IMG/VR virus record: IMGVR_UViG_3300029309_000006
Location: 1 to 64,000 of that record
Strand: one strand, 5' to 3'
Source: a virus
Length of the DNA stretch: 64,000 nt
Shown: positions 1 through 32,000 of the stretch, one piece after another
How positions within the stretch are numbered: the first letter of the stretch is position 1
How the letters are laid out: each line of letters begins with the position of its first letter
Notes under the pieces: model-generated
The model's database searches: none
What the model was told of the DNA's origin: nothing
What the model saw: the letters and a program-made list of their open reading frames with translations, nothing else
Made by a program: the position numbers and the translations under genes

Positions 1-290
1 ATGACCTAGGTTACGTAGGCATAAATGAAACGAGCCCTAGCAATAAATTACAAATTTCAGATAGTACAGTAGGAACAGATTCAACAGCAGATGATAGCAA
101 TTTTATAAAATTAACAAACAAAGATATTGGAACAGCAAATGAGGTATGGGGTTTAGGTTTTTCTAGCGAATCAGGTGGAACTGATTACTTAGGTGGCTTT
201 GTTCAAGCGTTAGGCAATTTCGCCAGTAACTTCAACACTTCTTTAATATTTGGAACTAGAGGAACCTCAGGGAATGCCACAGAAAGAATG
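1..290 (+). repeat. Direct repeat copy 1 (tail-fibre module)
   Basis: Matches 30327-30616: the first 167 nt are identical, with mismatches at 168, 178, 196, 222, 224 and 281. Confidence 0.97.
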
Positions 291-2360
291 AGGATAGATA
301 GCTCTGGAAACGTAGGAATTGGAGTGTCAAACCCACAAAATTTATTAAGCTTATCTAAAGCCGGTGGTGCTAATATAAGATTTGACAACCCTACCACTAA
401 TAGACATTTTGTAATTGGCGAAGGCGTTGGTTCACCTGATAAATTTTCATTTAGAGGTCTCGGTTACCGAAGCACCGATACAATGACAATTGATTTTACT
501 AATGATCGAGTTGGAATTAGTACTCATTCGCCTGGCAGAAAATTAACTGTAGCTGGTGATGTATCAGGAGATGCAAACAACTTACTTTTATCAAATGAAA
601 ATGATACTAATGGTGATACTGCTAGTATTGGATTTAGTATGCTTAGCAATAATACTTTTGTTAAGTCAGGTATTTTCTTTGAAAGAACAACTACTCAAGG
701 TAGAGGAAGTTTGCATTTAGCTGTTAATAATGAAGCTAATAGCAATAATGTTAGTAAAAGCGATGCAAAATTAACCATTGACACCTCAGGAAATTTATCT
801 CTTGCAACTGCAACATCTTTAGATTTTAATGTAGCTGATTTTGCACAAATTAGATTTAAAGAATCGGCAGCTATAACTATTGATTCAGACAATAATCAAT
901 CAAGTAGAAATTTTCAAATTAAAGATGGTAGTGGCTCAAGTTTATTAACAATATTAGATACAGGGGATGCAACTTTTGCAGGTAACGTAAAAATAGGAAC
1001 TTCAACAACTGGCACACCATCAACAAACGCGGATGATTTAGTTATAGACAAAGGAGCAACTGAATCAGGAATTACTTTAATTTCAACTAATGCTGCTACT
1101 TTAAGATTTGGTGATGCTGCTAATACTTCAATTGGTTTTATAGAATATAATCATAATTCAAATTATATGCGATTTGGCACTAATGCCGCAGAAAGAATGC
1201 GAATAAACAGTTCAGGAAACGTAGGAATTGGTGCTCAATCAGGCGGAACTTTAAATAATATACTACAAGTATCTTCGGGAACAAATGCGGATGGTATTAT
1301 ATTAACAGGTATTGGAGATAGCTCAGGTTTAGCAAATGGAAATTATAGAAGAATAGGTTTTAGATTTGATGAAACAGATGAAAGTTTTGAAAGTGAAATA
1401 AGATTTGTAGTTACAGATCAAAATGCCCACGGCGGTCAAATGCAATTTGTTACTGACAACTCATCTGGAACAAAATCAATAGCAATGACTATTGACAAAA
1501 ATCAAAACGTAGGAATTGGAACTACGATACCCTGGCTTCCCCTTATGATACAAAAAGCATCATCATCTACAAGTCAATCAGCAGATTCATCATTTCGATT
1601 ATGTTTAAGTAACTCTGACCAAACTAATAATAATTATGCTTTAATTTCTTTTATTGATGGTGATGGCAACCCAGGAAGTGCATATATGGGCTGTCAATAT
1701 GTTGACCATACTAATAATTATGGAGATATACTTTTTGGTACAAGAAGTGCATCAGGATTATCAGAAAAAAAGCGTATTACAAGTGCGGGATTCACTAAAG
1801 CAAAAACAGGTGGTAATTATTTTGGTGGTTCTTATCACGAATTTTGTAATAACAATAATGTAAGTGGAGATAGAGTTATGGTACTTGGAAATACAGGAGG
1901 TAGTGCTACAAATAATACCTCAAGTATTGCTTTAACTGTTGCTGATAATGCTAATGATAGATTAAAGATTTTTGGAAATGGTAATGTAGTAAATTTAAAT
2001 AATTCTTATGGTGCAAGTTCAGATATTAAATTAAAAGAAAACATAGTAGATGCTACTTCAAAATTAGATGACTTAATGAAGGTTAAGATTCGTAATTATA
2101 ATTTTATTGGAGATGATAAAAAACAAATTGGCGTAGTTGCTCAAGAATTAGAAGATATATTTCCTAATATGATTGATGAATCTATTGATTATGAATATAA
2201 AAAAATTAAAGATAAAGAGGGTAATATAACTGAAGAAAATATAGATTTAGGAACTACTACAAAATCAGTTAAATATTCCGTATTCGTTCCAATGTTAATA
2301 AAAGCAATACAAGAACTAAAAGCAGAAATTGAAACTTTAAAAACACAAATAAATAAATAA
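3..2360 (+). CDS. Tail fibre with C-terminal intramolecular chaperone (peptidase S74-like), 5'-truncated by the window
   Basis: Frame is open from position 3 (DLGYVGINETSP...) into ORF 288..2360. Repeated ERMRI/GNVGIG motifs, SDIKLKENI, GVVAQE and a C-terminal coiled coil. Confidence 0.9.
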   Translation, partial: DLGYVGINETSPSNKLQISDSTVGTDSTADDSNFIKLTNKDIGTANEVWGLGFSSESGGTDYLGGFVQALGNFASNFNTSLIFGTRGTSGNATERMRIDSSGNVGIGVSNPQNLLSLSKAGGANIRFDNPTTNRHFVIGEGVGSPDKFSFRGLGYRSTDTMTIDFTNDRVGISTHSPGRKLTVAGDVSGDANNLLLSNENDTNGDTASIGFSMLSNNTFVKSGIFFERTTTQGRGSLHLAVNNEANSNNVSKSDAKLTIDTSGNLSLATATSLDFNVADFAQIRFKESAAITIDSDNNQSSRNFQIKDGSGSSLLTILDTGDATFAGNVKIGTSTTGTPSTNADDLVIDKGATESGITLISTNAATLRFGDAANTSIGFIEYNHNSNYMRFGTNAAERMRINSSGNVGIGAQSGGTLNNILQVSSGTNADGIILTGIGDSSGLANGNYRRIGFRFDETDESFESEIRFVVTDQNAHGGQMQFVTDNSSGTKSIAMTIDKNQNVGIGTTIPWLPLMIQKASSSTSQSADSSFRLCLSNSDQTNNNYALISFIDGDGNPGSAYMGCQYVDHTNNYGDILFGTRSASGLSEKKRITSAGFTKAKTGGNYFGGSYHEFCNNNNVSGDRVMVLGNTGGSATNNTSSIALTVADNANDRLKIFGNGNVVNLNNSYGASSDIKLKENIVDATSKLDDLMKVKIRNYNFIGDDKKQIGVVAQELEDIFPNMIDESIDYEYKKIKDKEGNITEENIDLGTTTKSVKYSVFVPMLIKAIQELKAEIETLKTQINK

Positions 2361-2362
2361 TT

Positions 2363-2686
2363 ATGGCAAATACATACGAATGGCGAATAAACTGTTTAGA
2401 CACTAAAATTAAGCAAGATAAAAAAAGTAATGTAGTATATAACGTACATTGGTCTTACATAGCTAAGGATGATTCAGAAACGCCTTATATGGCAAGTTCT
2501 ATAGGTACTTATGGTGTAACTTATGATAAATCTAATTTTATTACATATTCTAAGCTTACAAAAGAAGATGTGGTAGGTTGGCTTGAAGCAGGGTTAGATG
2601 TAGATTCTATGAAAAAAAGTTTAGATAATCAAATTGAATTACAAAAAAATCCTGTCGATAATCATTTGAAGCCAAACTGGGATTAA
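2363..2686 (+). CDS. Tail-fibre-associated protein
   Basis: Follows the fibre gene. Motifs NVVYNVHW and VVGWLE; homologous to 37357..37713. Confidence 0.6.
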   Translation: MANTYEWRINCLDTKIKQDKKSNVVYNVHWSYIAKDDSETPYMASSIGTYGVTYDKSNFITYSKLTKEDVVGWLEAGLDVDSMKKSLDNQIELQKNPVDNHLKPNWD

Positions 2687-2712
2687 TTATATTTACATAA
2701 AAAATATATATT

Positions 2713-2961
2713 ATGAAAAATTTAGAAAAAAGCGAACACGATTACATAAAAGGTTTATTTGATGAAAATGCTAAAAACTATATGAGTATTGGTCAAGACC
2801 AAGAAAATATAAAAATATTAGAAGCAAGAATAAACAATACAATAAATAAAAATTTAGAGAACAAAAAAGACCTTGATAAATATTTAAAGAACTTAGAAAC
2901 TAAGTATGGCAAAATAAATATCAATATGCAAGATGGGTCTTATGAAGAAATAGAAGAATAA
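2713..2961 (+). CDS. Small coiled-coil protein
   Basis: C-terminal YGKININMQDGSY is homologous to 46443..46700 (YGSVNINLTDGTY). Confidence 0.6.
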   Translation: MKNLEKSEHDYIKGLFDENAKNYMSIGQDQENIKILEARINNTINKNLENKKDLDKYLKNLETKYGKININMQDGSYEEIEE

Positions 2962-3101
2962 TGGGATTAGCAGATATGAAGTTATATATTATTAATACAG
3001 TTGTCTTTGCTGTGACAATGACAGAGATCGAAACGTGGTTAAAAATTATTCTTCTTATCTGCACTATTATTTACACGATAATGAAAATAAAAAAAATGTA
3101 A
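2961..3101 (+). CDS. Small two-TM membrane protein, holin-like (46 aa, not in ORF track)
   Basis: MGLADMKLYIINTVVFAVTMTEIETWLKIILLICTIIYTIMKIKKM; fills the gap in the lysis region. Confidence 0.55.
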   Translation: MGLADMKLYIINTVVFAVTMTEIETWLKIILLICTIIYTIMKIKKM

Positions 3102-3102
3102 A

Positions 3103-3420
3103 ATGGCAACTAAGATAAGTGAAGATACTAACGTACAATTAGATTTAAAAACTATAGGATTAATTATAGGAGGTACTATATCTCTTGCAAGTATGTACTT
3201 TACTTTAAAATCTGACATTGATGCTTTAAATTCTAAAATAGAAAATTTTAGTGGAGATGAATTTGTACAAAAAATGGAATTTCAACTAAAGGATGAATTG
3301 ATTAGAGCAAACGTAATACAGATAGATAAAGCTACAAAAGATTTAAAAGAAGATATAGAAGAAAATAAAGAAGCGATAAAAATTAATTCAGAAAAAATTT
3401 ATGAAAACAAAAGAAGATGA
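3103..3420 (+). CDS. TM plus coiled-coil protein (lysis module)
   Basis: LDLKTIGLIIGG TM segment; paralogue of 4235..4519. Confidence 0.55.
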   Translation: MATKISEDTNVQLDLKTIGLIIGGTISLASMYFTLKSDIDALNSKIENFSGDEFVQKMEFQLKDELIRANVIQIDKATKDLKEDIEENKEAIKINSEKIYENKRR

Positions 3421-3764
3421 AACATTTAATATATGTCCTTTTTGTGTTATTTGCATTTGCAAAAACTAATGCACAAGACTTAACATTATTGCATATAAAT
3501 GCTAAGTGGAATGAAAGCAATAATTACAATTTAAGAGGAATAAAAGGTGCTAAAATACAAATGGCTTATTTAGAAGATCAAAGTTCTTCTATTAAATCAC
3601 AAATTAAATCTGTACCAACTATAATACTTTTAGATAAAAATGGCAAACCAAGAGGTCAATGGAAAGCAGGTTTAAGTTTTGTAATAACAGCAACACAGGA
3701 AGAAATACAAAATCGTATAAATGTAATTATGTTAGAAAACACAAGGCGTAGGTCAACAAATTAA
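3417..3764 (+). CDS. Secreted thioredoxin-like fold protein lacking CxxC
   Basis: Signal peptide ending TNA-Q; LHINAKWN and IKSVPTIILLDKNGK resemble the thioredoxin fold. Confidence 0.55.
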   Translation: MKHLIYVLFVLFAFAKTNAQDLTLLHINAKWNESNNYNLRGIKGAKIQMAYLEDQSSSIKSQIKSVPTIILLDKNGKPRGQWKAGLSFVITATQEEIQNRINVIMLENTRRRSTN

Positions 3765-3770
3765 TAAATT

Positions 3771-4235
3771 ATGATTAGTCAACATATATCAGAAAAAGAA
3801 GCAACTAAAAGCATTACTGCTTTACGTTTAGGTATTGACAACACCCCAAACGGAGATGCAATAAGTAATATGAAAGAGTTAGCAGAAAAAGTATTTGAAC
3901 CTCTTAGGGCTTGGGTAGGTGGTGCAATAAAGATAAATAGTTTTTATAGATCACCTGCATTAAACGAAGCTATTGGTGGCAGCAGTAGAAGCCAACATTG
4001 TAAAGGACAAGCTATGGATATTGATGACATTTACGGACACAAAACAAATGCAGAAATGTTTAAGTTTATTAAAGATGAACTTAATTATGACCAAATGATA
4101 TGGGAATTTGGAAACGAAGATAATCCTGACTGGGTTCACGTTTCATATGTAAGCGAAGATAAAAATAGAAATAGAATATTAAAAGCTGTTAGAGATGATG
4201 GTAAAACTAAATACATAGATATTACAAATAGCTAA
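3771..4235 (+). CDS. Endolysin, peptidase M15 family (Zn D-Ala-D-Ala-type)
   Basis: INSFYRS, SQHCKGQAMD, WVHVSY motifs. Confidence 0.9.
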   Translation: MISQHISEKEATKSITALRLGIDNTPNGDAISNMKELAEKVFEPLRAWVGGAIKINSFYRSPALNEAIGGSSRSQHCKGQAMDIDDIYGHKTNAEMFKFIKDELNYDQMIWEFGNEDNPDWVHVSYVSEDKNRNRILKAVRDDGKTKYIDITNS

Positions 4236-4519
4236 TGGGAATAGAGGAGAAAAAAATAGGATTAGATATAGATAGTGACGGAAAGCCTGATCTTAATTTA
4301 GATTTAAAAACATTAATACTTTTGATTGGTGGTATATCTTCATTGATATTTACATATACAACTTTACAATCAGATATAGAATCTGCAAAGCTTTTACCAC
4401 CACAACAAGACATATCTAAAGTAGAACAAAAGGTAGAATTTTTAGAAAACAAAATAGAAAACATAGAAAAACAACACGACAGAAGACTTGATAATATCGA
4501 GAAAAAAGTGTTTAAGTGA
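4235..4519 (+). CDS. TM plus coiled-coil protein (lysis module)
   Basis: DIDSDGKPD then LDLKTLILLIGG; paralogue of 3103..3420. Confidence 0.55.
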   Translation: MGIEEKKIGLDIDSDGKPDLNLDLKTLILLIGGISSLIFTYTTLQSDIESAKLLPPQQDISKVEQKVEFLENKIENIEKQHDRRLDNIEKKVFK

Positions 4520-4601
4520 GAGATTTATTTGACATATTGTTAAGTTTTTTAATTATAATGATTGCTTTATCTGTCACTATATTACCTTTAATGTTTCAAT
4601 T

Positions 4602-5009
4602 ATGAAAAATATATTAGCAAAAATATTTGGTGGTGCAGGTGGTGGCATAGCAAACTCTATAAGTGGTATAATAGATAAGCATACATTTAGTAAAGAAGAA
4701 AAAGCTAGGTTTGAAAAAGAAATGACAGAAGTGTTTATTAATGCAGAAGCAGATATGCAACAGAATGTTACTGAAAGGTGGAAAGCAGACCTTGAACACG
4801 GAAACACACTTACTAAATCAGTTAGACCTATAGTGCTTTTGTTTCTTATAATATCTACTGTGCTATTAGTATTTATAGATTCAGGAAGTATAAACTTTAA
4901 CGTAGAAGAAAAATGGACTGATCTATTACAGCTTGTACTAATTACAGTAATTGGTGCATACTTTGGTGGTCGTAGTATAGAAAAAGTAAAAAATGCCAAA
5001 AAAAATTAA
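4602..5009 (+). CDS. Holin (3TM GTA-type-like)
   Basis: RWKAD...LTKSVRP, two TM segments, AYFGGRS. Confidence 0.75.
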   Translation: MKNILAKIFGGAGGGIANSISGIIDKHTFSKEEKARFEKEMTEVFINAEADMQQNVTERWKADLEHGNTLTKSVRPIVLLFLIISTVLLVFIDSGSINFNVEEKWTDLLQLVLITVIGAYFGGRSIEKVKNAKKN

Positions 5010-5127
5010 CGTAAGTATATACAAATCCAATGCCAAAAAGCGTAAAGGCATACACGCTAAAAGCAAAAGCAGTAAATTAAAATCAAGCAAAAATTACTTA
5101 AAAAAATATAGAGGTCAAGGTAGATAA
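4993..5127 (+). CDS. Small basic protein (44 aa, not in ORF track)
   Basis: MPKKINVSIYKSNAKKRKGIHAKSKSSKLKSSKNYLKKYRGQGR. Confidence 0.55.
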   Translation: MPKKINVSIYKSNAKKRKGIHAKSKSSKLKSSKNYLKKYRGQGR

Positions 5128-5294
5128 TATTTTTTTTATATATTTGTTTTTGCTTATAGCTAAACTTCAAGAACCTAATAAAGTTGGACACTTGTTGGAA
5201 CAGGTACTACAAATTTTCTTTTTGTAGGCTTTTTCTTTTCTTTTTCTTTGCTTACTTTCTTTTTCTTTTCTTTTAATTATAATACATTTATAGT

Positions 5295-5699
5295 ATGAGA
5301 AAAATAACTCGTAAAGGACTTATTAAAAGACTAGATACTGTATTTTCAGAATACATAAGAAAGAAAAATGCAGATAGTAGAGGGTATGTTACCTGTATAA
5401 CATCAGGTCGTAAATACCACTACAGCGAAGTAGATGCAGGTCACTTTATATCACGTAAAGAAATGTCTACTAGGTGGCACGAAGACAATGTACACCCACA
5501 ATCAAGATACGATAACAGATACAGATACGGAAAGCAATATGAATACGGACTTGCACTAGATAATAAAAAAAAAGGTCTTGCTAAAAGACTATATAAACTA
5601 TCTAAACAAACTGTAAAGTATTCAGTAAACGACTTACAAGAATTACTAGATAAATACAAAAAACTATTGCACAACGAAAATAAAAGGTTATCTTTGTAG
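5295..5699 (+). CDS. NinG/Rap-like recombination endonuclease
   Basis: LDTVFSEYIR, GYVTCITSG, DAGHFISR, RWHEDNVHPQ. Confidence 0.85.
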   Translation: MRKITRKGLIKRLDTVFSEYIRKKNADSRGYVTCITSGRKYHYSEVDAGHFISRKEMSTRWHEDNVHPQSRYDNRYRYGKQYEYGLALDNKKKGLAKRLYKLSKQTVKYSVNDLQELLDKYKKLLHNENKRLSL

Positions 5700-5733
5700 A
5701 ACTTATCAATCTTTGATATAGTTGTTTTGTTTT

Positions 5734-5765
5734 AAGGGGAGAATTAATTTTTTCCCCTTTTTTTT
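5734..5765 (+). terminator. Rho-independent terminator
   Basis: AAGGGGA...TCCCCTT stem followed by a T-run. Confidence 0.75.
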
Positions 5766-6636: not shown

Positions 6637-6642
6637 ATAATT

Positions 6643-9637: not shown

Positions 9638-10340
9638 TAGTTTCTACTATGGAGAACTAAATCAATTAGCTTTAAGCAGTTCTTCTTTGAAATTATTATT
9701 ATCAAGTCCTAAAACTTACAAGTATGTTACTAAGTATGGTAATCCTGAAACACAACCATTAAGAGATGGCAGACTTGTACACCTTAGTATATTAGAACCT
9801 AGAAAATTTGAAGCTTTAAACTTTGTAGATGTATCGAGTAAAAACTCTAAAAAATACAGAGAAGCTAAATTAGAATTTGGAGAAGTATATACAAGATCAG
9901 AAAAAGAAAACGCTGAGAAAATAGCAGATGCTTTTTTAAAAAACGAACACGCTTTAAAAACAATTACAAACTGTGCTTTTGAAATACCATCAATAGGAAT
10001 AGTACAGGGCTACCCATTTAGAGGTAAAGCAGATGTACTTACAAATAATGGCATTGTAGATTTAAAAACTTCTACAGACATAAAAGGCTTTCCGTATGCT
10101 GCAAAAAAATACTCTTACGATGTACAATGTTATTTGTATTGCAAACTGTTTGATGTATCACACGAGCAATTTAAGTTTGTAGTGATAGACAAAGGTTCAC
10201 TTGACATTGCGATATGGAAATGTAGTAAAGAGTTCTACGAGGAGGGTAAAAGAAAAACAAAAGAAGCAATAGAAATATTTGAAAAGTTTTTTATAGAAGG
10301 TCAAGACATAGATAACTATATAATAGAAGGATTATTATGA
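9561..10340 (+). CDS. RecE/ExoVIII-like exonuclease (DUF3799-like PD-(D/E)xK)
   Basis: LSSSSLK, GRLVHLSILEP, RGKAD, VDLKTS, YDVQCYLY. Confidence 0.8.
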   Translation: MTQTKIQLLDGKDYNKKDLLKKMVDDSFYYGELNQLALSSSSLKLLLSSPKTYKYVTKYGNPETQPLRDGRLVHLSILEPRKFEALNFVDVSSKNSKKYREAKLEFGEVYTRSEKENAEKIADAFLKNEHALKTITNCAFEIPSIGIVQGYPFRGKADVLTNNGIVDLKTSTDIKGFPYAAKKYSYDVQCYLYCKLFDVSHEQFKFVVIDKGSLDIAIWKCSKEFYEEGKRKTKEAIEIFEKFFIEGQDIDNYIIEGLL

Positions 10341-11473
10341 TTAAAATTAAAAAAGAATTTAAAAGTTTAATACCAAATTTAACTAAAGAAGAATTTAAGC
10401 AATTAGAACAAAACTGTTTAGATGAAGGTATAAGAGAAAAAATACTTGTTTGGAATGGTTTTATTATTGATGGTCATAACAGATATGAGATTTCTTTAAA
10501 GTGGAATTTAGAAATACAAACAGAAACAAAACATTTTAAAGATGAAGAAGCTGTAAAGGAATGGATGATCTTAAACCAATTTGGTAGAAGAAATTTAAGT
10601 AACTATCAAAGAAGTGTTTTAGCATTACAACTTGAAGAAGTGTTTAGTAAAAAGGCTAAAGAAAATCAAGCTATACAATATAAAGGAAGTTCACTTTCGC
10701 AGAATTCTGCAGAAGTGAAACCAATAGAAACAAGAAACGAACTTGCAAAAGTAGCAAACGTATCACACGATACAATAGCTAAAGTAAAAAAAATACAAGC
10801 ACAAGCAAGTGAAGAAGTTAAAGCAAAACTATCTACTGGCGAAGTAAGTATAAATTCAGCTTTCCAAGATATTAAGAAAGAAGAAAAAAAGAAGAATAGG
10901 CTTGAAAAAATAGAGCAAATAAAACAAGAAATTTCTAAAGGTTTGAAAGCTCCAAATGGTTTATATGATGTAATATCTATTGATCCTCCTTGGGAATATT
11001 CAGAACGTGGAGGGAGTAGTCACAATTCATTTGATGCAGTAGGTAATCGAGCAGGTGTTGATTATCCTACTATGACAGTAGAAGAATTAAAAAAAATAAA
11101 TATTCCTGCTAAAAGCGATTGTGTTATGTTTTTGTGGACTACACACGCTTTTTTAAAAGATTCTTTTGATTTGTTAGATGCTTGGGGGTTTAATTATAAA
11201 GCTACTTTGGTGTGGGATAAAGTTAAAATGGGTATGGGTAGAAACATAAGGATGCAAGTAGAATTTTGTTTACTTGCTACCAAAGGAAAACCAATTTTAA
11301 ATGGTAGTGGAGAACGTGATATTATTACTGAACCTAGGAGAGAACACAGCAGAAAACCTGAAGCTTTTTACACTAAAGTTGATAATATGACTGTTGGTTA
11401 TAAATTAGATTATTTTGCAAGAGAACAAAGAAAAAATTGGTTTACATATGGAGCAGAAGTTGGAAAGTTTTAA
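10337..11473 (+). CDS. ParB-like N-domain fused to MT-A70 family N6-adenine methyltransferase
   Basis: IIDGHNR (ParB/Srx-like); DPPW, FLWTT, VWDK, EHSRKPE (MT-A70). Confidence 0.85.
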   Translation: MIKIKKEFKSLIPNLTKEEFKQLEQNCLDEGIREKILVWNGFIIDGHNRYEISLKWNLEIQTETKHFKDEEAVKEWMILNQFGRRNLSNYQRSVLALQLEEVFSKKAKENQAIQYKGSSLSQNSAEVKPIETRNELAKVANVSHDTIAKVKKIQAQASEEVKAKLSTGEVSINSAFQDIKKEEKKKNRLEKIEQIKQEISKGLKAPNGLYDVISIDPPWEYSERGGSSHNSFDAVGNRAGVDYPTMTVEELKKINIPAKSDCVMFLWTTHAFLKDSFDLLDAWGFNYKATLVWDKVKMGMGRNIRMQVEFCLLATKGKPILNGSGERDIITEPRREHSRKPEAFYTKVDNMTVGYKLDYFAREQRKNWFTYGAEVGKF

Positions 11474-12413: not shown

Positions 12414-12662
12414 ATGGATGGTAGAAAAAACAATGGAGGACACTCTACAAAAGGCAGAGCAGGTAGAAAACCAAAGACAGAAGAAATACAACTTATAGAA
12501 AAACTTACACCTTTAGAACCATTAGCTTTTGCAGCATTGAAAGAAGGATTGAAGAATAAAGACTTTAAGTTTGTACAACTTTATTATAATTATGTAGCAG
12601 GTAAACCAAAAGAAACAAAAGACATTCATATAAACGAAGATGTACCATTATTTATTGATTAA
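12414..12662 (+). CDS. Terminase small subunit (putative)
   Basis: Immediately upstream of terL; GRAGRKPK N-terminus. Confidence 0.6.
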   Translation: MDGRKNNGGHSTKGRAGRKPKTEEIQLIEKLTPLEPLAFAALKEGLKNKDFKFVQLYYNYVAGKPKETKDIHINEDVPLFID

Positions 12663-13828
12663 TGTTTAACCAAACAAAAGCTGTTAAAAGATTAAGAGAA
12701 TTAAACAATCGTATTCGTATTATTAGAGGAGGTTCATCAGCAGGTAAAACTATTGCTATTCTAATGATACTTATTGACTATGCAATTAAGAATCCTTACA
12801 AAGAAATAAGCGTAGTAGCAGAAAGTATTCCCCACTTACGTAGAGGTGCTTTAAAAGACTTTCTAAACATTCTAAAGGTAACGCTTAGGTACGATGAAAG
12901 AAAGTTTAACAAAAGTACCTTAAAATACGAATTTAGTAATGGTAGTTATATAGAGTTCTTTAGTACAGACCAACCTGATAGACTAAGAGGTGCAAGACGT
13001 ACAGACTTATTTATAAACGAATGTAACAATATAGACTTTGAATCTTATCAACAATTAGCAGTAAGAACATCAGGAGACATTTGGCTTGACTATAATCCTG
13101 CAAACTTATTTTGGGTAGACAAAGAACTTATAGGACAAAAAGATACAGACTTTATTACACTTACTTATAAAGACAATGAAAGCCTACCTGAATCTATAAT
13201 AAAAGAAATAGAGAAAGCAAAAATAAAAGCAAAGACAAGTACATACTGGTCTAACTGGTGGAAAGTATATGGTCTTGGAGAAATAGGAAGTTTGGAGGGT
13301 GTTTGTATTCCTGATTGGAAAAGCATTGATAATATTCCTTATGAAGCTAGATTACTTTGTGGAGGACTTGATTTCGGATTTGCTGTAGACCCTAGCTGTA
13401 TTATTTTTTTATACAAGTGGAACGAAGCATATATATTTGATGAAGTGCTTTATCGAAAAGGAATGTTAAACAGAGACATTAGTAGATTCTTAAAAGACAA
13501 TAACATCACCACCCACCTGTGGGCAGATTCAGCAGAACCAAAAAGTATAAGCGAGATAAGAGCTTACGGACATAAAATAGCAGGGGTTTCAAAAGGTAGA
13601 GATTCAGTAATATATGGTATTAACCTAATAAACCAAAACGAAATATATGTAACCTCCAAATCAAAAAACTTAATAAAAGAATTACAGGGTTATGTATGGG
13701 CAAAAGACAAAGAGGGTAACAACATTCAGAAACCTACAGGGTCGCATCCTGATTGTATTGATGCAGCTCGATATGCTTTAATGATGCAACTACAAAACCC
13801 CAACAGAGGTAAATATGCAATAAGATAA
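12662..13828 (+). CDS. terL: Terminase large subunit, PBSX family
   Basis: RGGSSAGKT, LFINE, DYNP, GLDFGF, ADSAEPK, DCIDAARYA. Confidence 0.92.
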   Translation: MFNQTKAVKRLRELNNRIRIIRGGSSAGKTIAILMILIDYAIKNPYKEISVVAESIPHLRRGALKDFLNILKVTLRYDERKFNKSTLKYEFSNGSYIEFFSTDQPDRLRGARRTDLFINECNNIDFESYQQLAVRTSGDIWLDYNPANLFWVDKELIGQKDTDFITLTYKDNESLPESIIKEIEKAKIKAKTSTYWSNWWKVYGLGEIGSLEGVCIPDWKSIDNIPYEARLLCGGLDFGFAVDPSCIIFLYKWNEAYIFDEVLYRKGMLNRDISRFLKDNNITTHLWADSAEPKSISEIRAYGHKIAGVSKGRDSVIYGINLINQNEIYVTSKSKNLIKELQGYVWAKDKEGNNIQKPTGSHPDCIDAARYALMMQLQNPNRGKYAIR

Positions 13829-25696: not shown

Positions 25697-25710
25697 TAAT
25701 TGTTTAACAT

Positions 25711-25748: not shown

Positions 25749-25762
25749 AAAAATATATATAT

Positions 25763-26287
25763 ATGGCGTGTACACTTACAAAAGGGCGTGAACTACCTTG
25801 CAAATCAGGGGTTGGTGGAATAAAAAGTATAACATTTGCTGACTTTAATACTTTAGGAGCTTTAACTGTTGCAAATGACATAATTACTGATTTCGGTGGA
25901 AGTCCTACATTTATGAAGTTTGATGTAAAGGGTAATTCTACAATGGACACTACTGTAACATCATCAAGAGAAAACGGAACTACTTTTTATGAAACAACAG
26001 TAGTAATGAATTTAATCTTCCAAGAGGAAAAAACACAAGCAGAAATTAAATTACTTGCTGTTTCAAGACCTCATATTATAGTAGAAGATTATAACGGAAA
26101 CTTTAGACTTGTTGGAAAAGATCACGGATGCGAATTAACAACTGGGACATTTTCAAATGGAGCTGCGATGGGAGACCTTTATGGCTACTCACTTACATTT
26201 GTTTCACAAGAAACAGAAGCACCTGACTTTGTTGCTACAGCAGCTTACAATGCTGAAAGTCAAGGAACACAAATTGACGTAAATTAA
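25763..26287 (+). CDS. Major tail (tube) protein
   Basis: MAC.LT.GR..PC...VGGI, SRENGTTFY, GYSLTF. Confidence 0.65.
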   Translation: MACTLTKGRELPCKSGVGGIKSITFADFNTLGALTVANDIITDFGGSPTFMKFDVKGNSTMDTTVTSSRENGTTFYETTVVMNLIFQEEKTQAEIKLLAVSRPHIIVEDYNGNFRLVGKDHGCELTTGTFSNGAAMGDLYGYSLTFVSQETEAPDFVATAAYNAESQGTQIDVN

Positions 26288-26310
26288 GAATAGTTTGTTC
26301 TTGTTATTGG

Positions 26311-26340
26311 AAAAGGGGGTTTTATACCTCCTTTTTTTTT
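26311..26340 (+). terminator. Rho-independent terminator
   Basis: AAAAGGGGGT-TTTAT-ACCTCCTTTT plus T-run. Confidence 0.75.
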
Positions 26341-26350
26341 GCTTTATTAC

Positions 26351-26376
26351 AAAATCACTATATTATTTCGATATAT
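26351..26376 (+). promoter_or_regulatory. Unit A late-promoter motif copy 5
   Basis: AAAAT-N13-CGATATAT before the ATG at 26381. Confidence 0.7.
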
Positions 26377-26380
26377 TAAT

Positions 26381-26746
26381 ATGAAAGTATTGACTACAAG
26401 TAGTTCAGCACAAACTTTAGATGTAGTTCCTAGAACTTATATTTCTAGCTATACAATGAAACTTAGAGATACAAGCAAAAATAAAGAAGTATTTAGTTCA
26501 TCTGTAACTGGAATTACAAATGGTAATTTTAAAAGAATATCTGCAACTATAAGCCCTATATTAAAAGAGGGTAGGTATTATGATTTAACTTTACTAAATG
26601 GAGCTACAGTAGTATATAGAGATAAAATATTTTGCACAGATCAAACTATAAATCAGAACAACAATGATTATTACGAAATAAATTCAGGTCAATATACTTT
26701 TGATGAAACAGCAGGGTCACACGATAACGATTATATAATAGTATGA
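26381..26746 (+). CDS. Structural protein (hypothetical)
   Basis: Probable ATG start at 26381 within ORF 26339..26746. Confidence 0.55.
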   Translation: MKVLTTSSSAQTLDVVPRTYISSYTMKLRDTSKNKEVFSSSVTGITNGNFKRISATISPILKEGRYYDLTLLNGATVVYRDKIFCTDQTINQNNNDYYEINSGQYTFDETAGSHDNDYIIV

Positions 26747-28482
26747 ACGATTTAAGAGTTTTAAATTTAAGCAGTTACACAACACCAAAAGTAACAGAAC
26801 AAAAAAATAGAGATTGGATTGGGTATGGAGAGGATAACAATTACTTTAAATATCTAATTGACAGATACAACGGAAGTCCTACCAATAACGCTATTATAAA
26901 CGCTGTTTCTGCGATGATCTATGGTAAAGGATTAGATGCTACCGATTCAAATAAAAAGCCTGAACAGTACGCTAAAATGGTTTCTTTGTTTAACAAGGAC
27001 TGCACAAGAAAACTTTGTTACGATTTAAAACTTATGGGTCAATGTTCAATGCAAGTAATATATTCAAAGGATAGAAAAACAATAGCACAGATAGAACACT
27101 TTCCTGTAGAAACATTAAGAGCAGAAAAAGCAAATGAAAAAGGAGATATAGAAGCTTATTATTATTTTTCAGATTGGTCTAATTTTAAATCTACAAGTAA
27201 AGCAAAAAGAATACCTGCTTTTGGAATGAGTAAGGAATCTATAGAAATACTTTATGTTAAACCTTATAGAGCAGGATTTTATTATTATAGTCCAGTAGAC
27301 TACCAAGGTGGCTTACAATATAGCGAACTAGAAGAAGAAGTAGGAAACTTCCATTTAAATAATATTATGAATGGTATGTCTCCAAGTATGTTAATTAATT
27401 TTAACAATGGTACACCAACAGAAGAAGAAAGAGAAAGAATAGAACATCGTATAATGCAAAAGTTTTCAGGCAGTAGTAATGCAGGTAAATTTATATTAGC
27501 ATTTAACGACAATGCAGATACAGCAGCAAGTATAGACCCAGTACAATTATCAGATGCACACCAACAATATCAGTTTCTAAGTGAAGAAAGTACAAGAAAG
27601 ATAATGGTATCTCACAGAATTGTATCTCCAATGCTTATAGGTATTAAAGATCAATCAGGACTTGGAAACAATGCTGATGAATTAAAAACAGCATCTATAT
27701 TACTTGACAATACAGTTATTAGACCTTTTCAGCATTTGCTTATAGAAGCATTTGACCAAATATTAGCTTATAATAAAATATCGCTTAACCTATACTTTAA
27801 AACTTTACAACCATTAGAATTTACAGACCTAACAAATGTAGAAGATGAAGAAACTAAAGAAGAAGAAACAGGTGTAAAATTAAGTGAAGATGTATGTAAT
27901 CATAATCATTTTAATTTAAGCGAAGATGAAATGACTACAATAGCAGATGATATTATTTCAAAAGGAGAAGATATAGGGGATGATTGGGAGTTGTTAAATG
28001 AAACACCTGCTCTAAATGATGAAACTGAAATAAAAGATTATTTTGAGTTTGCAAGGGTTGTAAGTGGAGATGCAAGAAAAAAAGACGAACAAGACACAAG
28101 TCTATTTAGAATAAGGTATAAATATACAGCAGGAAGATCAACCAAAGGAGAATCTAGGGAATTTTGTAAAAAAATGTTAGCTGCAAATAAAGTTTACAGA
28201 ATGGAAGATTTAGATAAACAAAGTACAGCAAATAGTGAACTTGCAGCAAAAGGCGAAAACAGCTACAATATCTGGCTTTTTAAGGGCGGAGTGAACTGCT
28301 CCCATTATTGGATGCGACAAATATATCTTAAAAAAGGTAACAAAAAAATATCAGTAGGCAGAGCAAGAAGTATAATAAGTGCTTTACCTAGAAACGAAAG
28401 AAAAGATGCAAGGTTTGAAACAAACCCACCTGAGGTTTCTCAAATAGCATCAGCAAGAAATAATTATTGGAGAAAAAATTAA
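26743..28482 (+). CDS. Portal protein with C-terminal MuF-like extension
   Basis: YGEDNNY, SPTNNAII, GSSNAGK, LGNNADE; C-terminal FKGGVNCSHYW. Confidence 0.7.
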   Translation: MNDLRVLNLSSYTTPKVTEQKNRDWIGYGEDNNYFKYLIDRYNGSPTNNAIINAVSAMIYGKGLDATDSNKKPEQYAKMVSLFNKDCTRKLCYDLKLMGQCSMQVIYSKDRKTIAQIEHFPVETLRAEKANEKGDIEAYYYFSDWSNFKSTSKAKRIPAFGMSKESIEILYVKPYRAGFYYYSPVDYQGGLQYSELEEEVGNFHLNNIMNGMSPSMLINFNNGTPTEEERERIEHRIMQKFSGSSNAGKFILAFNDNADTAASIDPVQLSDAHQQYQFLSEESTRKIMVSHRIVSPMLIGIKDQSGLGNNADELKTASILLDNTVIRPFQHLLIEAFDQILAYNKISLNLYFKTLQPLEFTDLTNVEDEETKEEETGVKLSEDVCNHNHFNLSEDEMTTIADDIISKGEDIGDDWELLNETPALNDETEIKDYFEFARVVSGDARKKDEQDTSLFRIRYKYTAGRSTKGESREFCKKMLAANKVYRMEDLDKQSTANSELAAKGENSYNIWLFKGGVNCSHYWMRQIYLKKGNKKISVGRARSIISALPRNERKDARFETNPPEVSQIASARNNYWRKN

Positions 28483-28483
28483 A

Positions 28484-28993
28484 ATGGCAACAGCATTATT
28501 CATAAAACCGATTGACTTAAAAAGAAACTCTATAATAGACGGAAACGTAGATGTTGACCACTTCCTTGGCTTTCTAAAGATCGCACAGGAAATTCACATT
28601 AGAAACTATCTAGGAACGGATTTATACAATAAAATAAGCACAGACATAATTGGTACTGGTGGAGCATCGCTAACAGGTAATTATTTAAACCTTGTAAACG
28701 ACTATATACAGCCTATGCTTATACACTTTGCTATGGTTGATTATTTGCCTTTTGCAAGTTACAGGCTTAAAAATGGTGGACTTAGTAAACCAACAAGTGA
28801 AAACAGCGAATCTGTTACAAAAGAAGAAGTGGACTATTTAGTACAAAAACACAGAAATATAGCAGAATATTATACAACAAGATTTATAGACTATATGAGT
28901 TTTAATCAAAGTTTATTTCCTGAGTATAATACTAATACAAATGATGATATTCATCCTGATAAAGATGCTCTATTCAATGGTTGGGTATTATGA
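28484..28993 (+). CDS. Head-tail adaptor protein
   Basis: AQEIHIRNYLGTDLY, FPEY; downstream of the portal gene. Confidence 0.6.
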   Translation: MATALFIKPIDLKRNSIIDGNVDVDHFLGFLKIAQEIHIRNYLGTDLYNKISTDIIGTGGASLTGNYLNLVNDYIQPMLIHFAMVDYLPFASYRLKNGGLSKPTSENSESVTKEEVDYLVQKHRNIAEYYTTRFIDYMSFNQSLFPEYNTNTNDDIHPDKDALFNGWVL

Positions 28994-29047
28994 AGTATAA
29001 AGTAAAGAAAAAAAATATTGACAAATTATTAACATATTTAAAGAGTA

Positions 29048-32000
29048 ATGGCAACATTAACAAACACACAAATATCGGTAACGTATGTAGGGTTATTAAA
29101 GACAAGTGCTAGTACAGTACTAAGTTCTACTGCTCAACAAATTACTGATGGTTCAGGCAATAATAGTATTTTATTTCTATCTACAGCAGGAGTTGGAATA
29201 GGTGGTGCTGCTAGTGCAGGTAAAGAATTTGAAGTTACAGGTAACGCTAAAATTACAGGAGACCTTATAGTAGATAACATAAAGATAGATGCCAATACTA
29301 TTTCTGCTGAAACTGGTGTTGTTACTCTAGCAGATGGTGCTATTGCTACAACTCAAAGTGCAAGTGATAATTCTACTAAAATTGCTACGACTGCATATGT
29401 AGATGCTCAGGTTACTGCTCAGGACTTAGATTTTAGTGGTACATCAGGCACAGGTTCAGTTGATTTAGATTCTCAAACATTTGCTGTAGTAGGTACTGCT
29501 AATGAAATTGAAACATCTGCAGGTAGCCAACAGTTACAAATAGGACTTCCCAATGATGTGACAATAAGTAATAAATTAACTGTTAATACTAACTTAGAAA
29601 TAGAAGATAATCACATTAACCAAACGACTGGTCAACTTAAAATAGAATCAGCAGATAGTATAGTATTAGATGCTACTGGTGATATTGTTTTTAAAGATAA
29701 TAATCAACAGTTTGCAAAGTTTGTAAACACTAATGGTATTTTATCAATTGAATCTACCCTAAAAAAACAAGCAAGTTTTGCTGACACAGGAGTTGAATTA
29801 TATGCAAATGATGTTAAAAAATTAGAAACCGAAGATGCAGGAGTTACAATAATTGGTGCTTTAAATGTTGATAGTGTGACTTCTACAGGTGGTGCAACTT
29901 TTGGAGGAACAGTAACTACTTCACAAATAACTAGCAGTGGTAATTTTACTATTGATTCAGCATTACAAATTATACTTGATGGTGCTGATGATGGTTCAAT
30001 ACAATTAAAAGATGATGGCACTCTATATGGTCTTATATATTCAACTTCAGATGACTTTTATATTAAATCAACAGTTTCTGATGGAGATATTATTTTTCAG
30101 GGTAATGATGGGGGTGTAGGTAAAACAGTTTTAACGTTGGATATGTCTGAAAATGGCAATGCAACTTTTGCAGGTGAGGTAAAATTGCAGTCAAGTAATG
30201 CTTTTACAACATTAAGAACTGGTAATGATTTTGGTTGGAGTATATATGCTAATTCAAGTAATTTTTTAACTTTTGGAACTGGAGCAGCAGCTAATACAAA
30301 AGCAACAGATTGGGTGACCATTCGAGATGACCTAGGTTACGTAGGCATAAATGAAACGAGCCCTAGCAATAAATTACAAATTTCAGATAGTACAGTAGGA
30401 ACAGATTCAACAGCAGATGATAGCAATTTTATAAAATTAACAAACAAAGATATTGGAACAGCAAATGAGGTATGGGGTTTAGGTTTTTCTAGCAAATCAG
30501 GTGCAACTGATTACTTAGGTGCCTTTGTTCAAGCGTTAGGCAATTTCACTAGTAACTTCAACACTTCTTTAATATTTGGAACTAGAGGAACCTCAGGGAA
30601 TGCCACCGAAAGAATGCGAATTAACAGTTCTGGAAAAGTAGGAATCGGAGAAACAGCACCTGCCGCTAAACTAGATGTTAAAGTTGCTTCAAATGAACAT
30701 TTTTTAGTTAGTGATTCTTTATCTACTGTATCATTAAAAGCTACTAATGATGCCGCTGCTGCTTACGTTCCAATGTCAATTAATGGTTCAGCTTTAACTA
30801 TAAATGCTGATTCTGGTGGAAACGTCGGGATTGGAACTGCTTCGCCTGGTTATAGACTTTCAGTAGCTAATGCATCAACTAGAATTGTATCAATAAATTA
30901 TCAAGATAGTATAAATACAATTATGTCTCATGCGGGTTCACCTAATTATGGTTTAGAAGCATTAACTATTAGAGGAGATTATATAGCTTTTTATACAGAT
31001 TATGACGTTAGTCATTATCAAGGTGTTGAAAGAATGCGTATAACATCTGCAGGACAAGTTAATATACATCCTATAAACGATACAAGTGAGACACTTAGAG
31101 TTTTTAGAGGTACTGGTGCATTTGCTTCTCAATCAATTTCTATTGATGCAAAAAGTGGTGATGCAAATATTAGATTACTTGCAACTGATACTGCAAGGTC
31201 AACTGTATTTTATAGGTCATCAGATGGAGGTAGTAATTTTACAGAAAGTATGCGTATAGGCAGTAATGGAAATATTGCTCAAGCAAATACAAGTCCAATA
31301 GCTGACCCTTTTGTCAATGGTGCAGAACAATGGATGACTTACCAAATTGGAAAAGCAGGAGTATTAGGTGCATACAAAAATAATAATGAAAGTATGTTTG
31401 GTTTTAATACATATTTTTCAGCACCAAGTGGAGTAAATAAAGCAATAGTTTCTGGTTTAGATGGAACTGCAACAAGATATTATGCTGATAGAATTACATT
31501 TAATACTTTAACAAGTTCTGGAACTACTCAAACGCAAACAGAAAGAATGCGTATTACATCTGGGGGTAACATTAACATAGGTTCTGGTGGTTTAACACAA
31601 ACTGCATATCAATTAAGAGTAGATTCTGATTTTGATAATGGTATTTATTTGAGTGCAGCTTCAGGAAACGATAGTGCATTGTATATTGATAATGGAGCTG
31701 GAACTGCAGAATTATTTATAGTTAGAGGAGATGGAAATATAAAAATACCTGGAATTGGTGTTACTACTGGTGCTACTGCTGTTGGAGTAGATTCAAGTGG
31801 TTTTATTAGAAAGTTATCATCATCAAAAAGATATAAAAAAGATATTGAGTCAATTGATATAGGTTTAGATTTTATAAATTCTTTAAGTCCAGTTAAGTTT
31901 AAAATGAAAGAAGATGATGTTGAAAGTGTTGGATTAATTGCTGAAGATATGATTGACAATAGGTTTGTTACATATTCACAAATTGATATGAAAGATGAAT

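What the first reader, a model, noticed from the sequence alone, without database searches (positions are those of the whole stretch)
1..30932. Complete CATG avoidance in unit A that ends abruptly at the junction
Seen in a manual scan: no CATG between 1 and 30928 (His before G is always CAC-G), then CATG at 30929 and many thereafter (e.g. ~32510, 33110, 33428, 34028, 37142). A rough composition-based expectation is tens of sites in 30 kb. GGCC also appears absent from A, and GATCC is nearly absent (Asp-Pro coded GAC-CCN), while both are common in B. Established: CATG is a type II restriction target (NlaIII; FatI from Flavobacterium aquatile). Inference: A and B evolved under different restriction regimes, with A avoiding sites and B tolerating or modifying them. 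This independently places the switch between 30327 and 30929.
Basis: partly seen in the sequence, partly recalled or inferred. Interest (0 to 1): 0.7.

Follow-up and report, generated by a model that had tools for sequence, protein, structure and literature searches.

The report
CATG-free phage fused to CATG-tolerant phage
The record holds two different marine phage genomes joined at a short shared repeat, most likely by the assembler; the first has removed every CATG restriction site by silent codon changes, a known defence-evasion habit, and the second keeps its sites and probably modifies its cytosines.

Summary
CATG occurs 0 times in 1-30928, against 53-83 expected (P below 1e-23). It occurs 99 times in the rest of the 95.7-kb record. 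GGCC is also absent from A. The GATCC point is weak.

The abrupt end arises because the record holds two phage genomes.
- A is 30,326 bp and closes on itself.
- B is about 65.4 kb.
- They are joined through a 167-nt exact repeat inside tail-fibre genes, and the record begins exactly at that repeat.
- Each unit has its own terminase, portal, capsid and lysis genes.
- Complete relatives measure 30-33 kb and 64-69 kb.
- Contig depths put A:B at about 2:1 in one sample and 4.6:1 in another. An assembly chimera is therefore far likelier than a cointegrate.

The purge is lineage-wide: 80 A-type loci hold 72 CATG against about 1,800 expected. It is made by silent codon choice. It also occurs in the unrelated cultured Flavobacterium phages FpV9 (1/133) and elemoF (0/124), which points to host restriction.

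B carries no methylase. It does carry a homologue of T4 dCMP hydroxymethylase. B strongly avoids only GATATC and, more mildly, GGATG, and the enzymes for both still cut hydroxymethyl-C DNA.

This is a new member of a known kind. This scan has already noted CATG purges in other phages and giant viruses.

The parts
1..30326 (+). Unit A. It is a complete small phage genome that closes on itself (30326 joins 1), with 0 CATG and 0 GGCC.
   Evidence: A has its own endolysin, holin, NinG, SSB, primase/helicase, exonuclease, methylase, terminase, portal, protease and capsid-like genes. In relatives G011, G001 and G003 the genes at A's end and at A's start flank a single fibre gene.
1..167 (+). First copy of the 167-nt exact repeat. 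The record begins exactly here. The similarity runs on to 324 at 96% identity overall.
   Evidence: Self-BLAST and alignment A1.
30327..30493 (+). Second copy of the exact repeat. This is the true A-to-B switch. From 30494 the sequence follows B's version, with 14 differences up to 30650.
   Evidence: Logan contigs coming from A stop at 30370 in two runs. At 30494-30550 A-type letters have depth 32 of a total 48.9, which leaves about 17 for B-type letters, in run X1.
29048..32107 (+). Hybrid tail-fibre ORF of 1019 aa as written in the record: an A-type N-terminus, the shared module and a B-type C-terminus.
   Evidence: Residues 1-95 are 74-77% identical to fibre N-termini of A-type genomes. 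Joining 30326 to 1 keeps the frame (coordinates).
30929..30932 (.). First CATG of the record.
30494..64000 (+). Unit B, which continues to 95,752 in the record. It is a podophage-like genome of about 65 kb with near-normal CATG, GGCC and GATC but no GATATC.
   Evidence: B has its own GroEL, endolysin, terminase, portal and capsid genes. Ribonucleotide reductase, MazG, primase-helicase, ERF, sigma factor and ligase genes lie beyond the window.
10337..11473 (+). A's ParB-like plus MT-A70 adenine methyltransferase. Its specificity is unknown. It evidently does not protect CATG.
   Evidence: PHROG 359, E 3e-49. Pfam MT-A70, E 1.9e-22.
12662..13828 (+). A's large terminase, used to collect A-type relatives.
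47749..49971 (+). B's large terminase, used to collect B-type relatives.

Best explanation
The record is two phage genomes in one contig.

Unit A (1-30326) is a complete small phage of a marine Flavobacteriia-type host. It is about 30.3 kb and closes on itself. Unit B (30494-95752) is an unrelated phage of about 65 kb. Both carry a nearly identical tail-fibre module. The assembler most probably walked from A into B through its 167-nt exact core, so the join is an artefact and not one molecule.

CATG is absent from A because A's lineage has long been selected against that word. Silent codon choices removed it in all three reading-frame positions, along with many other Type II restriction words. 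The most likely selective agent is CATG-cutting Type II restriction in its hosts; this step is inferred.

B keeps CATG, GGCC, GCGC, CCGG and GATC. This is probably because it replaces cytosine with a 5-substituted cytosine, made by its homologue of T4 dCMP hydroxymethylase. That would block most Type II enzymes; this step is also inferred. B's lineage has had to purge only GATATC and, partly, GGATG, and the enzymes for both still cut hydroxymethyl-C DNA.
For: Two genomes:
- Each unit has its own terminase, portal, capsid-like protein, endolysin, primase/helicase and exonuclease.
- The terminases belong to different phage groups.
- Complete A-type relatives are 30.3-32.9 kb, one with terminal repeats. 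Complete B-type relatives are 64.5-68.9 kb, two with terminal repeats. 30.3 + 65.4 = 95.7 kb.
- The record starts exactly at the 167-nt exact repeat.
- In three A-type genomes the A-end genes and A-start genes flank one fibre gene, with nothing between.

Separate molecules:
- Exact-match Logan contigs have depth 23-38 (A) against 15-17 (B) in run X1, and 104-113 against 18-31 in run X3.
- In X1 the A-type letters of the module have depth 32 of a total 48.9, which leaves about 17 for the B-type letters.

Purge:
- A has 0 CATG against 53-83 expected, and 34 +/- 4 under codon shuffling.
- The codon-context rules hold in all three frames.
- 80 A-type loci (813 kb) hold 72 against about 1,811 expected. 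B-type loci hold 1,675 against 1,926.
- The terminal-repeat genome G004 has 0 against 68.
- On a quick terminase tree the purge spans both deep branches, is relaxed in two small clades, and GGCC is tolerated in one clade.

Host-side driver:
- FpV9 has 1 against 133 and shares only terminase and SSB with A.
- elemoF has 0 against 124 and is of B's terminase group.
- No NlaIII/IceA or PvuII-like nuclease occurs in A or in four A-type genomes.

B's modification:
- The gene matches Pfam PF00303 at E 1.5e-27.
- Its best solved relative is T4 dCMP hydroxymethylase 1B49, E 3e-17. The catalytic Cys and the cytosine-specifying Asp are kept.
- The Asp is conserved in B-type genomes G006-G008 and the gene is absent from A-type genomes.
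- The nearest cultured homologues are annotated as deoxycytidylate 5-hydroxymethyltransferase.
- A MazG-like gene lies next to it.
- No methylase was found in B.
- 5hmC DNA resists NlaIII, FatI, HaeIII, HhaI, HpaII and MboI, but EcoRV, FokI and BtsCI cut it completely (PMC7653180 Table S1).
- B has 0 GATATC against 15 expected, and GGATG at 0.56-0.61 of expectation.
Against: - No read or long molecule was examined across the junction. A rare real cointegrate cannot be excluded.
- Contig depths are k-mer means per contig, not read counts.
- The host is unknown and no CATG-specific nuclease was tied to it.
- The NlaIII/IceA family occurs in only 3-4 of 301 genomes of a family sample centred on a Flavobacteriaceae-labelled MAG. 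DNA from that sample has only mild CATG depletion, ratio 0.75.
- The link between the hydroxymethylase gene and CATG tolerance is not clean. Four cultured Cellulophaga/Tenacibaculum phages and one uncultured freshwater genome of B's terminase group lack the gene yet keep CATG at 0.65-0.82. B might therefore simply meet hosts without CATG restriction.
- B's lineage also shows about 0.5 depletion of GAATTC, GGATCC and GGTACC. Their enzymes do not cut 5hmC DNA in the published table.
- No nucleotide kinase for the modified dCMP was identified.
Confidence: 0.72

Rival explanations
1. The record is a real cointegrate. Circular A recombined with B through the shared fibre module in a single crossover, giving one 95.7-kb molecule with hybrid fibre genes at both joints.
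For: The topology fits a single crossover: repeat, A, repeat, B. The hybrid fibre ORF 29048-32107 is intact. The module is clearly used for recombination among fibre genes, as shown by the Logan joint 33141 to 30363.
Against: - The A:B depth ratio differs between samples, about 2:1 against about 4.6:1.
- The record's 3' end does not join its 5' end in frame.
- By inference from relatives' genome sizes, a 95.7-kb molecule fits neither a 30-33-kb nor a 64-69-kb capsid.
- A second IMG/VR record, G005, joins two A-type genomes in the same way, which suggests an assembler habit.
Confidence: 0.06
2. A lacks CATG because it carries its own CATG-cutting nuclease without a methylase. It would use the nuclease against host or rival DNA and spare itself by having no sites.
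For: Earlier notes of this scan describe such cases in other CATG-free phages. Those notes are unchecked leads. Several early ORFs of A have no recognisable family. The purge is total.
Against: - No NlaIII/IceA (PF05315) or PvuII-like (PF09225) gene occurs in A or in four near-complete A-type genomes. The PvuII control rang nowhere, so that half of the test is weak.
- FpV9 and elemoF purge CATG too but share almost no genes with A.
- A also avoids dozens of other words.
- The purge is relaxed in two small clades.
Confidence: 0.05
3. B keeps CATG not because its DNA is modified but because its hosts lack CATG restriction. On this view A and B infect different hosts despite the shared fibre module.
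For: Four cultured Cellulophaga/Tenacibaculum phages and one uncultured freshwater genome of B's terminase group have no thymidylate-synthase-family gene and still keep CATG at 0.65-0.82. CATG nucleases of the NlaIII family are rare in the family sample.
Against: - A and B share 167 identical nucleotides in a receptor-binding gene and occur together in the same samples.
- All four genomes that carry the gene show almost no palindrome depletion except GATATC. Relatives without the gene deplete GATC, GAATTC and others.
- The gene keeps the catalytic and cytosine-specifying residues.
Confidence: 0.2
4. The absence of CATG is a by-product of composition, codon usage or avoidance of out-of-frame ATG, and not of selection on the DNA word.
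For: A is AT-rich (31% G+C) and CATG is mildly low in most genomes, including B (0.64-0.87) and the host-family DNA (0.75).
Against: - Markov and synonymous-shuffle expectations are 34-62.
- AATG, GATG, TATG and CATA/C/T are normal.
- Codon choice changes only where CATG would arise.
Confidence: 0.01

Closest known systems
Restriction-site (short palindrome) avoidance in virulent phages. From my own knowledge, examples are staphylococcal phage K without GATC and Bacillus phages without GGCC. Earlier notes of this scan cite surveys by Rusinov et al. 2018 (PMC6286503), which I did not read.
   Same: A 4-base Type II recognition word is removed completely from a whole phage genome by silent changes. 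Many other such words are depleted, and the pattern is lineage-specific.
   Different: The word is CATG and the hosts are Flavobacteriia-type. The purge is documented across 80 uncultured marine loci plus two cultured Flavobacterium phage groups. I found no paper that reports this. The host enzyme is not identified.
T4-type cytosine replacement: dCMP hydroxymethylase gp42 (PDB 1B49/1B5D) with dCTPase gp56.
   Same: B's 222-aa protein is a thymidylate-synthase-family enzyme. T4 gp42 is its best solved match. It has the catalytic Cys and Asp in place of Asn, and a MazG-type pyrophosphatase lies next to it. B's word usage resembles what 5hmC DNA would allow.
   Different: Only about 30-35% of the sequence aligns like gp42. 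No kinase or glucosyltransferase was found. The product could be 5-hydroxymethyl-, 5-methyl- or a further modified cytosine. Nothing was measured.
Chimeric metagenome contigs that join co-occurring genomes through a shared repeat.
   Same: The join lies in an exact repeat of about read length. The contig begins at the repeat. Its length is the sum of two complete genomes, and depth differs on the two sides.
   Different: The shared repeat is not a mobile element or an rRNA gene. It is a tail-fibre module exchanged between unrelated phages, which is itself a hint of a common host.
Orphan phage restriction nucleases with self-avoidance: NlaIII/IceA1-like or PvuII-like, as noted earlier in this scan on other phages.
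   Same: The genome is free of CATG.
   Different: No such gene occurs in A or its relatives.

Membership tests
Restriction-site avoidance in phages | The word is far below expectation under Markov and codon-preserving null models. | tested here: met
   0 against 53-62 (Markov) and 34.4 +/- 4.0 (synonymous shuffle). It is the top outlier among all 4-6-mers.
Restriction-site avoidance in phages | The word is a known Type II recognition sequence. | tested here: met
   NlaIII, FatI and CviAII are listed with the site CATG in PMC7653180 Table S1.
Restriction-site avoidance in phages | The depletion is made by silent codon choice in every frame, and neighbouring words are unaffected. | tested here: met
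   His-CAC is used only before G. No C-ending codon precedes Met. No NCA codon precedes TGN. NATG and CATN words are normal.
Restriction-site avoidance in phages | The depletion is heritable along the phage lineage and varies between clades and hosts. | tested here: met
   80 relatives have a ratio of 0.04. The terminase tree has a GGCC-tolerant clade and two CATG-relaxed clades. Cultured Flavobacterium phages purge CATG and Cellulophaga phages do not.
Restriction-site avoidance in phages | The host carries a nuclease that cuts the avoided word. | tested here: inconclusive
   The host is unknown. PF05315 occurs in 3-4 of 301 family genomes. The one carrier sampled with a strong hit has CATG 5 against 43 expected. 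The other sampled genomes lie at 0.63-0.95 (pooled 0.75). Other CATG nuclease families could not be searched.
Assembly chimera of two genomes | Two complete, non-homologous sets of essential phage genes are present. | tested here: met
Assembly chimera of two genomes | The join lies at an exact repeat, and the contig end coincides with the repeat. | tested here: met
   1-167 equals 30327-30493. Logan contigs break at 30370.
Assembly chimera of two genomes | The two sides have different abundance, with a ratio that varies between samples. | tested here: met
   X1 has 23-38 against 15-17. X3 has 104-113 against 18-31. These are contig k-mer depths.
Assembly chimera of two genomes | No read pair or long read links the two unique sides. 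| not testable with these tools
   Only Logan contigs were available, not raw reads.
dCMP hydroxymethylase (T4 gp42 type) | The protein has a thymidylate-synthase fold with the catalytic cysteine. | tested here: met
   PF00303 at E 1.5e-27. Cys aligns with the T4 catalytic Cys in the 1B49 alignment.
dCMP hydroxymethylase (T4 gp42 type) | Asp replaces Asn at the base-specifying position. | tested here: met
   GFCND aligns with T4 GFRND. The Asp is invariant in four B-type genomes.
dCMP hydroxymethylase (T4 gp42 type) | Partner enzymes are present: a dCTPase and a kinase for the modified nucleotide. | tested here: inconclusive
   A MazG-like gene is adjacent. No kinase was recognised.
dCMP hydroxymethylase (T4 gp42 type) | Modified cytosine is present in virion DNA. 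| not testable with these tools
   This needs mass spectrometry or modification-aware sequencing.
Orphan phage CATG nuclease with self-avoidance | The CATG-free genome carries an NlaIII/IceA-like or PvuII-like nuclease gene. | tested here: not met
   No match at E up to 1 in the record or in four A-type genomes.

The most novel reading that the evidence does not exclude
A and B attack the same marine host and meet the same restriction enzymes with opposite strategies. A erases the sites. B modifies its cytosines and erases only the few sites whose enzymes ignore the modification (GATATC, GGATG). Comparing the two word lists would then give both the host's restriction repertoire and the chemistry of B's modification from sequence alone.
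Probability: 0.4. Interest if true: 0.5.

Novelty: new member of a known kind. Interest (0 to 1): 0.35.

Why it matters
- A public virus record rated 100% complete is in fact two genomes, and a second record (G005) has the same fault. A sharp step in restriction-word usage is a cheap way to detect such chimeras.
- The complete CATG purge spans a widespread group of uncultured marine phages and two cultured Flavobacterium phage groups. It points to a strong, so far unnamed CATG restriction activity in part of the Flavobacteriaceae, which could help assign hosts.
- The pair A and B share a receptor module but differ in strategy. They offer a natural comparison of site erasure with base modification. 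The cultured phages elemoF and FpV9 make the restriction side testable at the bench.

Tried and rejected
- Megablast of both halves against cultured phages found nothing.
- The first request for sequencing runs failed and was repeated.
- I used B's ribonucleotide reductase to reach host genomes. It returned only B-type phage contigs mis-binned in MAGs, so it gave no host DNA.
- I tried to show that B's two ends are adjacent in B-type genomes, using the flanking genes. The genes were too divergent for a conclusion.
- Logan contigs: no listed contig covers 30370-30830 in the source run. The A-to-B path could therefore be neither confirmed nor denied from them.
- I expected phages of B's terminase group without the thymidylate-synthase-type gene to purge CATG. 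This held for elemoF but not for Cellulophaga phi19:3, phi38:1, Calle_1, Tenacibaculum Gundel_1 or MW202828. I dropped the simple correlation.
- Own-nuclease idea: PF05315 and PF09225 are absent.
- I looked for a widespread NlaIII-type enzyme in the host family. It occurs in only 3-4 of 301 genomes.
- Literature searches for CATG avoidance or CATG restriction in Flavobacteriia and their phages found nothing relevant.
- The careful terminase tree did not finish, so the quick tree with SH-aLRT support was used.
- The FpV9 genome was not searched for a thymidylate-synthase gene.

Full report
**1. The observation**

The window has 59 CATG, all at or after 30929, and 29 GGCC, all at or after 34355. 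GATCC occurs once before 30.9 kb and 28 times after it.

The window is the first 64 kb of a 95,752-bp IMG/VR virus record. CATG continues through the rest of the record, 99 sites in all, none before 30929.

Expected CATG in the first 30.3-30.9 kb:
- 54 by a second-order Markov model and 83 by base composition
- 62 with both strands pooled
- 34.4 +/- 4.0 (minimum 24) in 200 shuffles of synonymous codons among A's own ORFs

The probability of zero lies between 3e-24 and 1e-36. In an unbiased scan of all 4-6-mers, CATG is the most depleted word, z = -7.8.

The codon pattern confirms selection on the DNA word in all three frames:
- His before a G-starting codon is CAC 28 times and CAT never. Elsewhere it is CAT 62 and CAC 39.
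- None of the 146 codons before Met ends in C.
- None of the 146 codons before TGY/TGG ends in CA.

AATG, GATG, TATG and CATA/C/T are normal.

GGCC (0 against 8.5-10) is also truly absent. GATCC/GGATC (2 against about 7) is marginal and is not a property of A's relatives.

**2. Why the pattern ends abruptly: two genomes in one record**

The repeat:
- Positions 1-324 repeat 30327-30650 at 96% identity.
- The first 167 nt are identical and the first mismatch is at 168/30494.
- The record therefore starts exactly at an exact repeat. Joining 30326 to 1 keeps the reading frame of the tail-fibre ORF that begins at 29048 (coordinates).

Duplicate gene sets:
- A (1-30326) has an endolysin, holin, NinG, SSB, primase/helicase, exonuclease, ParB/MT-A70 methylase, large terminase, portal, prohead protease and a capsid-like protein.
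- B has GroEL, an M15 endolysin, a 740-aa terminase, a 793-aa portal and a 484-aa capsid-size protein.
- Beyond the window B also has ribonucleotide reductase, MazG, primase-helicase, an exonuclease, ERF, a sigma factor, a ligase and DenV.
- The two terminases belong to different groups. A's is 48% identical to those of Flavobacterium psychrophilum phages. B's is 45-64% identical to those of Elemovirus, Cellulophaga phages and a spring-water podophage.

Sizes of relatives:
- IMG/VR relatives of A's terminase (81-97% identity) lie on contigs that top out at 29-33 kb. One is 32,880 bp with direct terminal repeats.
- Relatives of B's terminase reach 64.5-68.9 kb, two of them with terminal repeats.
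- 30.3 + 65.4 kb gives the record's length.

Synteny: in three A-type genomes (G011, G001, G003) the genes at A's 3' end and those at A's 5' end flank a single fibre gene.

**3. Chimera or cointegrate?**

The stretch occurs in marine metagenome runs. Only Logan contigs were available.

Exact-match contigs give these k-mer depths:

| Run | A side | B side |
|---|---|---|
| X1 (possible source) | 23-38 | 15-17 |
| X3 | 104-113 | 18-31 |

- A-side contigs end at 30370 in both runs, as expected for a branch inside the repeat.
- At 30494-30550, run X1 holds the A-type letters at depth 32 of a total 48.9, which leaves about 17 for the B-type letters.
- An A:B ratio that changes from about 2 to about 4.6 between samples means separate molecules.
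- By inference from the sizes above, a 95.7-kb fusion would fit neither capsid class.
- A second record, G005 (53,010 bp, rated complete), is two A-type genomes joined head to tail. This is the same kind of error.

I put an assembly chimera at about 0.9 and a real cointegrate at about 0.06. Read pairs were not available to settle it.

**4. The purge is a lineage trait**

- The 80 A-type loci (813 kb, many samples) hold 72 CATG against about 1,811 expected, a ratio of 0.04. The 80 B-type loci (898 kb) hold 1,675 against 1,926, a ratio of 0.87.
- G004 has 0 against 68, and G005 has 0 against 105.
- On a quick terminase tree the purge covers both deep branches. It is relaxed (25-50% of expectation) in two small clades. 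GGCC is absent everywhere except one well-supported clade of 20 rows, where it is at or above expectation.
- The A lineage also depletes many other Type II words:

| Word | Observed/expected |
|---|---|
| GGWCC | 0.07 |
| GGTACC | 0.04 |
| GAGCTC | 0.09 |
| GATATC | 0.16 |
| CACTG | 0.17 |
| GTATAC | 0.21 |
| AAGCTT | 0.22 |
| TGATCA | 0.22 |
| GAGTC | 0.26 |
| CTGCAG | 0.26 |
| GATC | 0.53 |

**5. What drives the purge**

Evidence for a host-side pressure in part of the Flavobacteriaceae:
- FpV9 of F. psychrophilum has 1 CATG against 133 expected. It shares only terminase and SSB with A.
- Elemovirus elemoF of Flavobacterium sp. BAL314 has 0 against 124, 0 GGCC and 0 CCGG.
- Three gene-poorly-related phage groups with the same purge argue for a host-side pressure and against a phage gene.
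- Accordingly, no NlaIII/IceA (PF05315) or PvuII-like (PF09225) nuclease occurs in the record or in four A-type genomes. Earlier notes of this scan prompted that test.
- The pressure is not universal. Cellulophaga phages phi19:3, phi38:1 and Calle_1, Tenacibaculum phage Gundel_1 and MW202828 keep CATG at 0.65-0.82.

The enzyme itself is unidentified:
- PF05315 occurs in only 3-4 of 301 genomes of a family sample centred on a Flavobacteriaceae-labelled MAG.
- DNA from 16 of those genomes has a pooled CATG ratio of 0.75. The exception is one PF05315 carrier, at 0.12.
- From my own memory, two CATG-specific enzymes (FatI, FaeI) come from Flavobacterium aquatile. The paper library did not let me confirm this.

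**6. Why B keeps its sites**

- It is a thymidylate-synthase-family protein, PF00303 at E 1.5e-27.
- Its best solved relatives are T4 dCMP hydroxymethylase (1B49, E 3e-17) and CMP hydroxymethylase MilA. They rank ahead of true thymidylate synthases.
- The alignment keeps the catalytic Cys and shows GFCND opposite T4's GFRND. That is Asp where thymidylate synthases have Asn.
- Orthologues with the same Asp occur in B-type genomes G006-G008 and not in A-type genomes.
- The nearest cultured homologues (Bacteroides phages, 49% identity) are annotated as deoxycytidylate 5-hydroxymethyltransferase.
- A MazG-type pyrophosphatase gene lies beside it.
- No DNA methylase was found in B.

Published digests of 5hmC DNA (T4gt; PMC7653180, Table S1):
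- Resistant to NlaIII, FatI, HaeIII, HhaI, HpaII, MboI/Sau3AI, AlwI and BamHI
- Cut completely by EcoRV, FokI, BtsCI, TaqI and NdeI

B's word usage matches in its main features:
- Nearly all words lie at 0.9-1.1.
- GATATC is 0 against 15 in B and 0.25 in B's relatives.
- GGATG is at 0.56-0.61.
- All four genomes that carry the gene have GATATC as their consistently depleted 6-base palindrome, with at most one other.

The match is imperfect:
- GAATTC, GGATCC and GGTACC are at about 0.5.
- The simple rule 'no gene, therefore purge' fails for the Cellulophaga group.

I put the modification step at about 0.6. The main rival is that B's hosts simply lack CATG restriction. Against that rival stands the shared fibre module: 167 identical nucleotides in a receptor-binding gene, in phages that co-occur in the same samples. 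Inside that module the B copy even carries ACTAGT at 30548 where the A copy reads GCCAGT.

**7. Verdict**

- The abruptness is an artefact of two genomes joined in one record.
- The biology is a clear, lineage-wide example of restriction-site avoidance, which is a well-known phenomenon. This scan has already noted it for CATG in other phages and giant viruses.
- It is paired here with a probable cytosine-modifying neighbour.
- I rate it a new member of a known kind, of moderate interest.

Noticed in passing
IMG/VR record G005 (L221-L223), 53,010 bp: This record is rated 100% complete but consists of two A-type genomes, 70-93% alike, joined head to tail. It is a second chimera of the same kind. 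CATG is 0 against 105 expected.
   Followed up: partly
L183-L216 (genome-contig hits): B-type phage contigs with ribonucleotide reductase 80-94% identical sit in MAG bins labelled Aliivibrio, Nitrosomonadales, Thiothrix, Nitrospirae and others. One Flavobacteriaceae MAG contig of 117 kb holds two copies 56 kb apart, possibly a concatemer.
   Followed up: no
window 62408-63988: This 526-aa B protein carries a crAss-like muzzle protein C-terminal domain (PF25729, E 8.6e-11).
   Followed up: no
window 30548 versus 222: Inside the shared fibre module the B copy has ACTAGT where the A copy reads GCCAGT. A's copy lacks a restriction-type word even within near-identical sequence.
   Followed up: partly
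window 44960-45050: Five GATCC sites come from a tandem KDPMKM peptide repeat in ORF 44255-45142. This inflates B's GATCC count.
   Followed up: partly
window 33141 and 30363 (Logan contigs): A contig in run X4 (depth 246) joins 33141 to 30363 with 14 other letters between. Another fibre gene in another strain therefore uses the same module, which suggests that the module is a recombination linker among fibre genes.
   Followed up: no
A-type loci L043-L087 (one clade of 20 rows): GGCC occurs at up to three times expectation (for example 42 against 14), while all other A-type clades have none. This is unexplained.
   Followed up: partly
Cultured and complete Flavobacteriaceae phage genomes: GATATC is strongly depleted in most of the phage genomes examined, whether or not they carry the hydroxymethylase-type gene. 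The exceptions are phi38:1, Calle_1 and MW202828, and the depletion is mild in G004 (3/9). MW202828 has GATC 0 against 191 and CCGG 0 against 26. G004 has GATC 0 against 70.
   Followed up: partly
G271 (L248, L226): One genome of the family sample (centred on a Flavobacteriaceae-labelled MAG) carries an NlaIII/IceA-family gene (E 8e-65). Its own CATG is 5 against 43 expected in a 20-kb sample.
   Followed up: no
window 38138-39697: B encodes a full-length GroEL-type chaperonin, as the cultured Elemovirus phages do.
   Followed up: no
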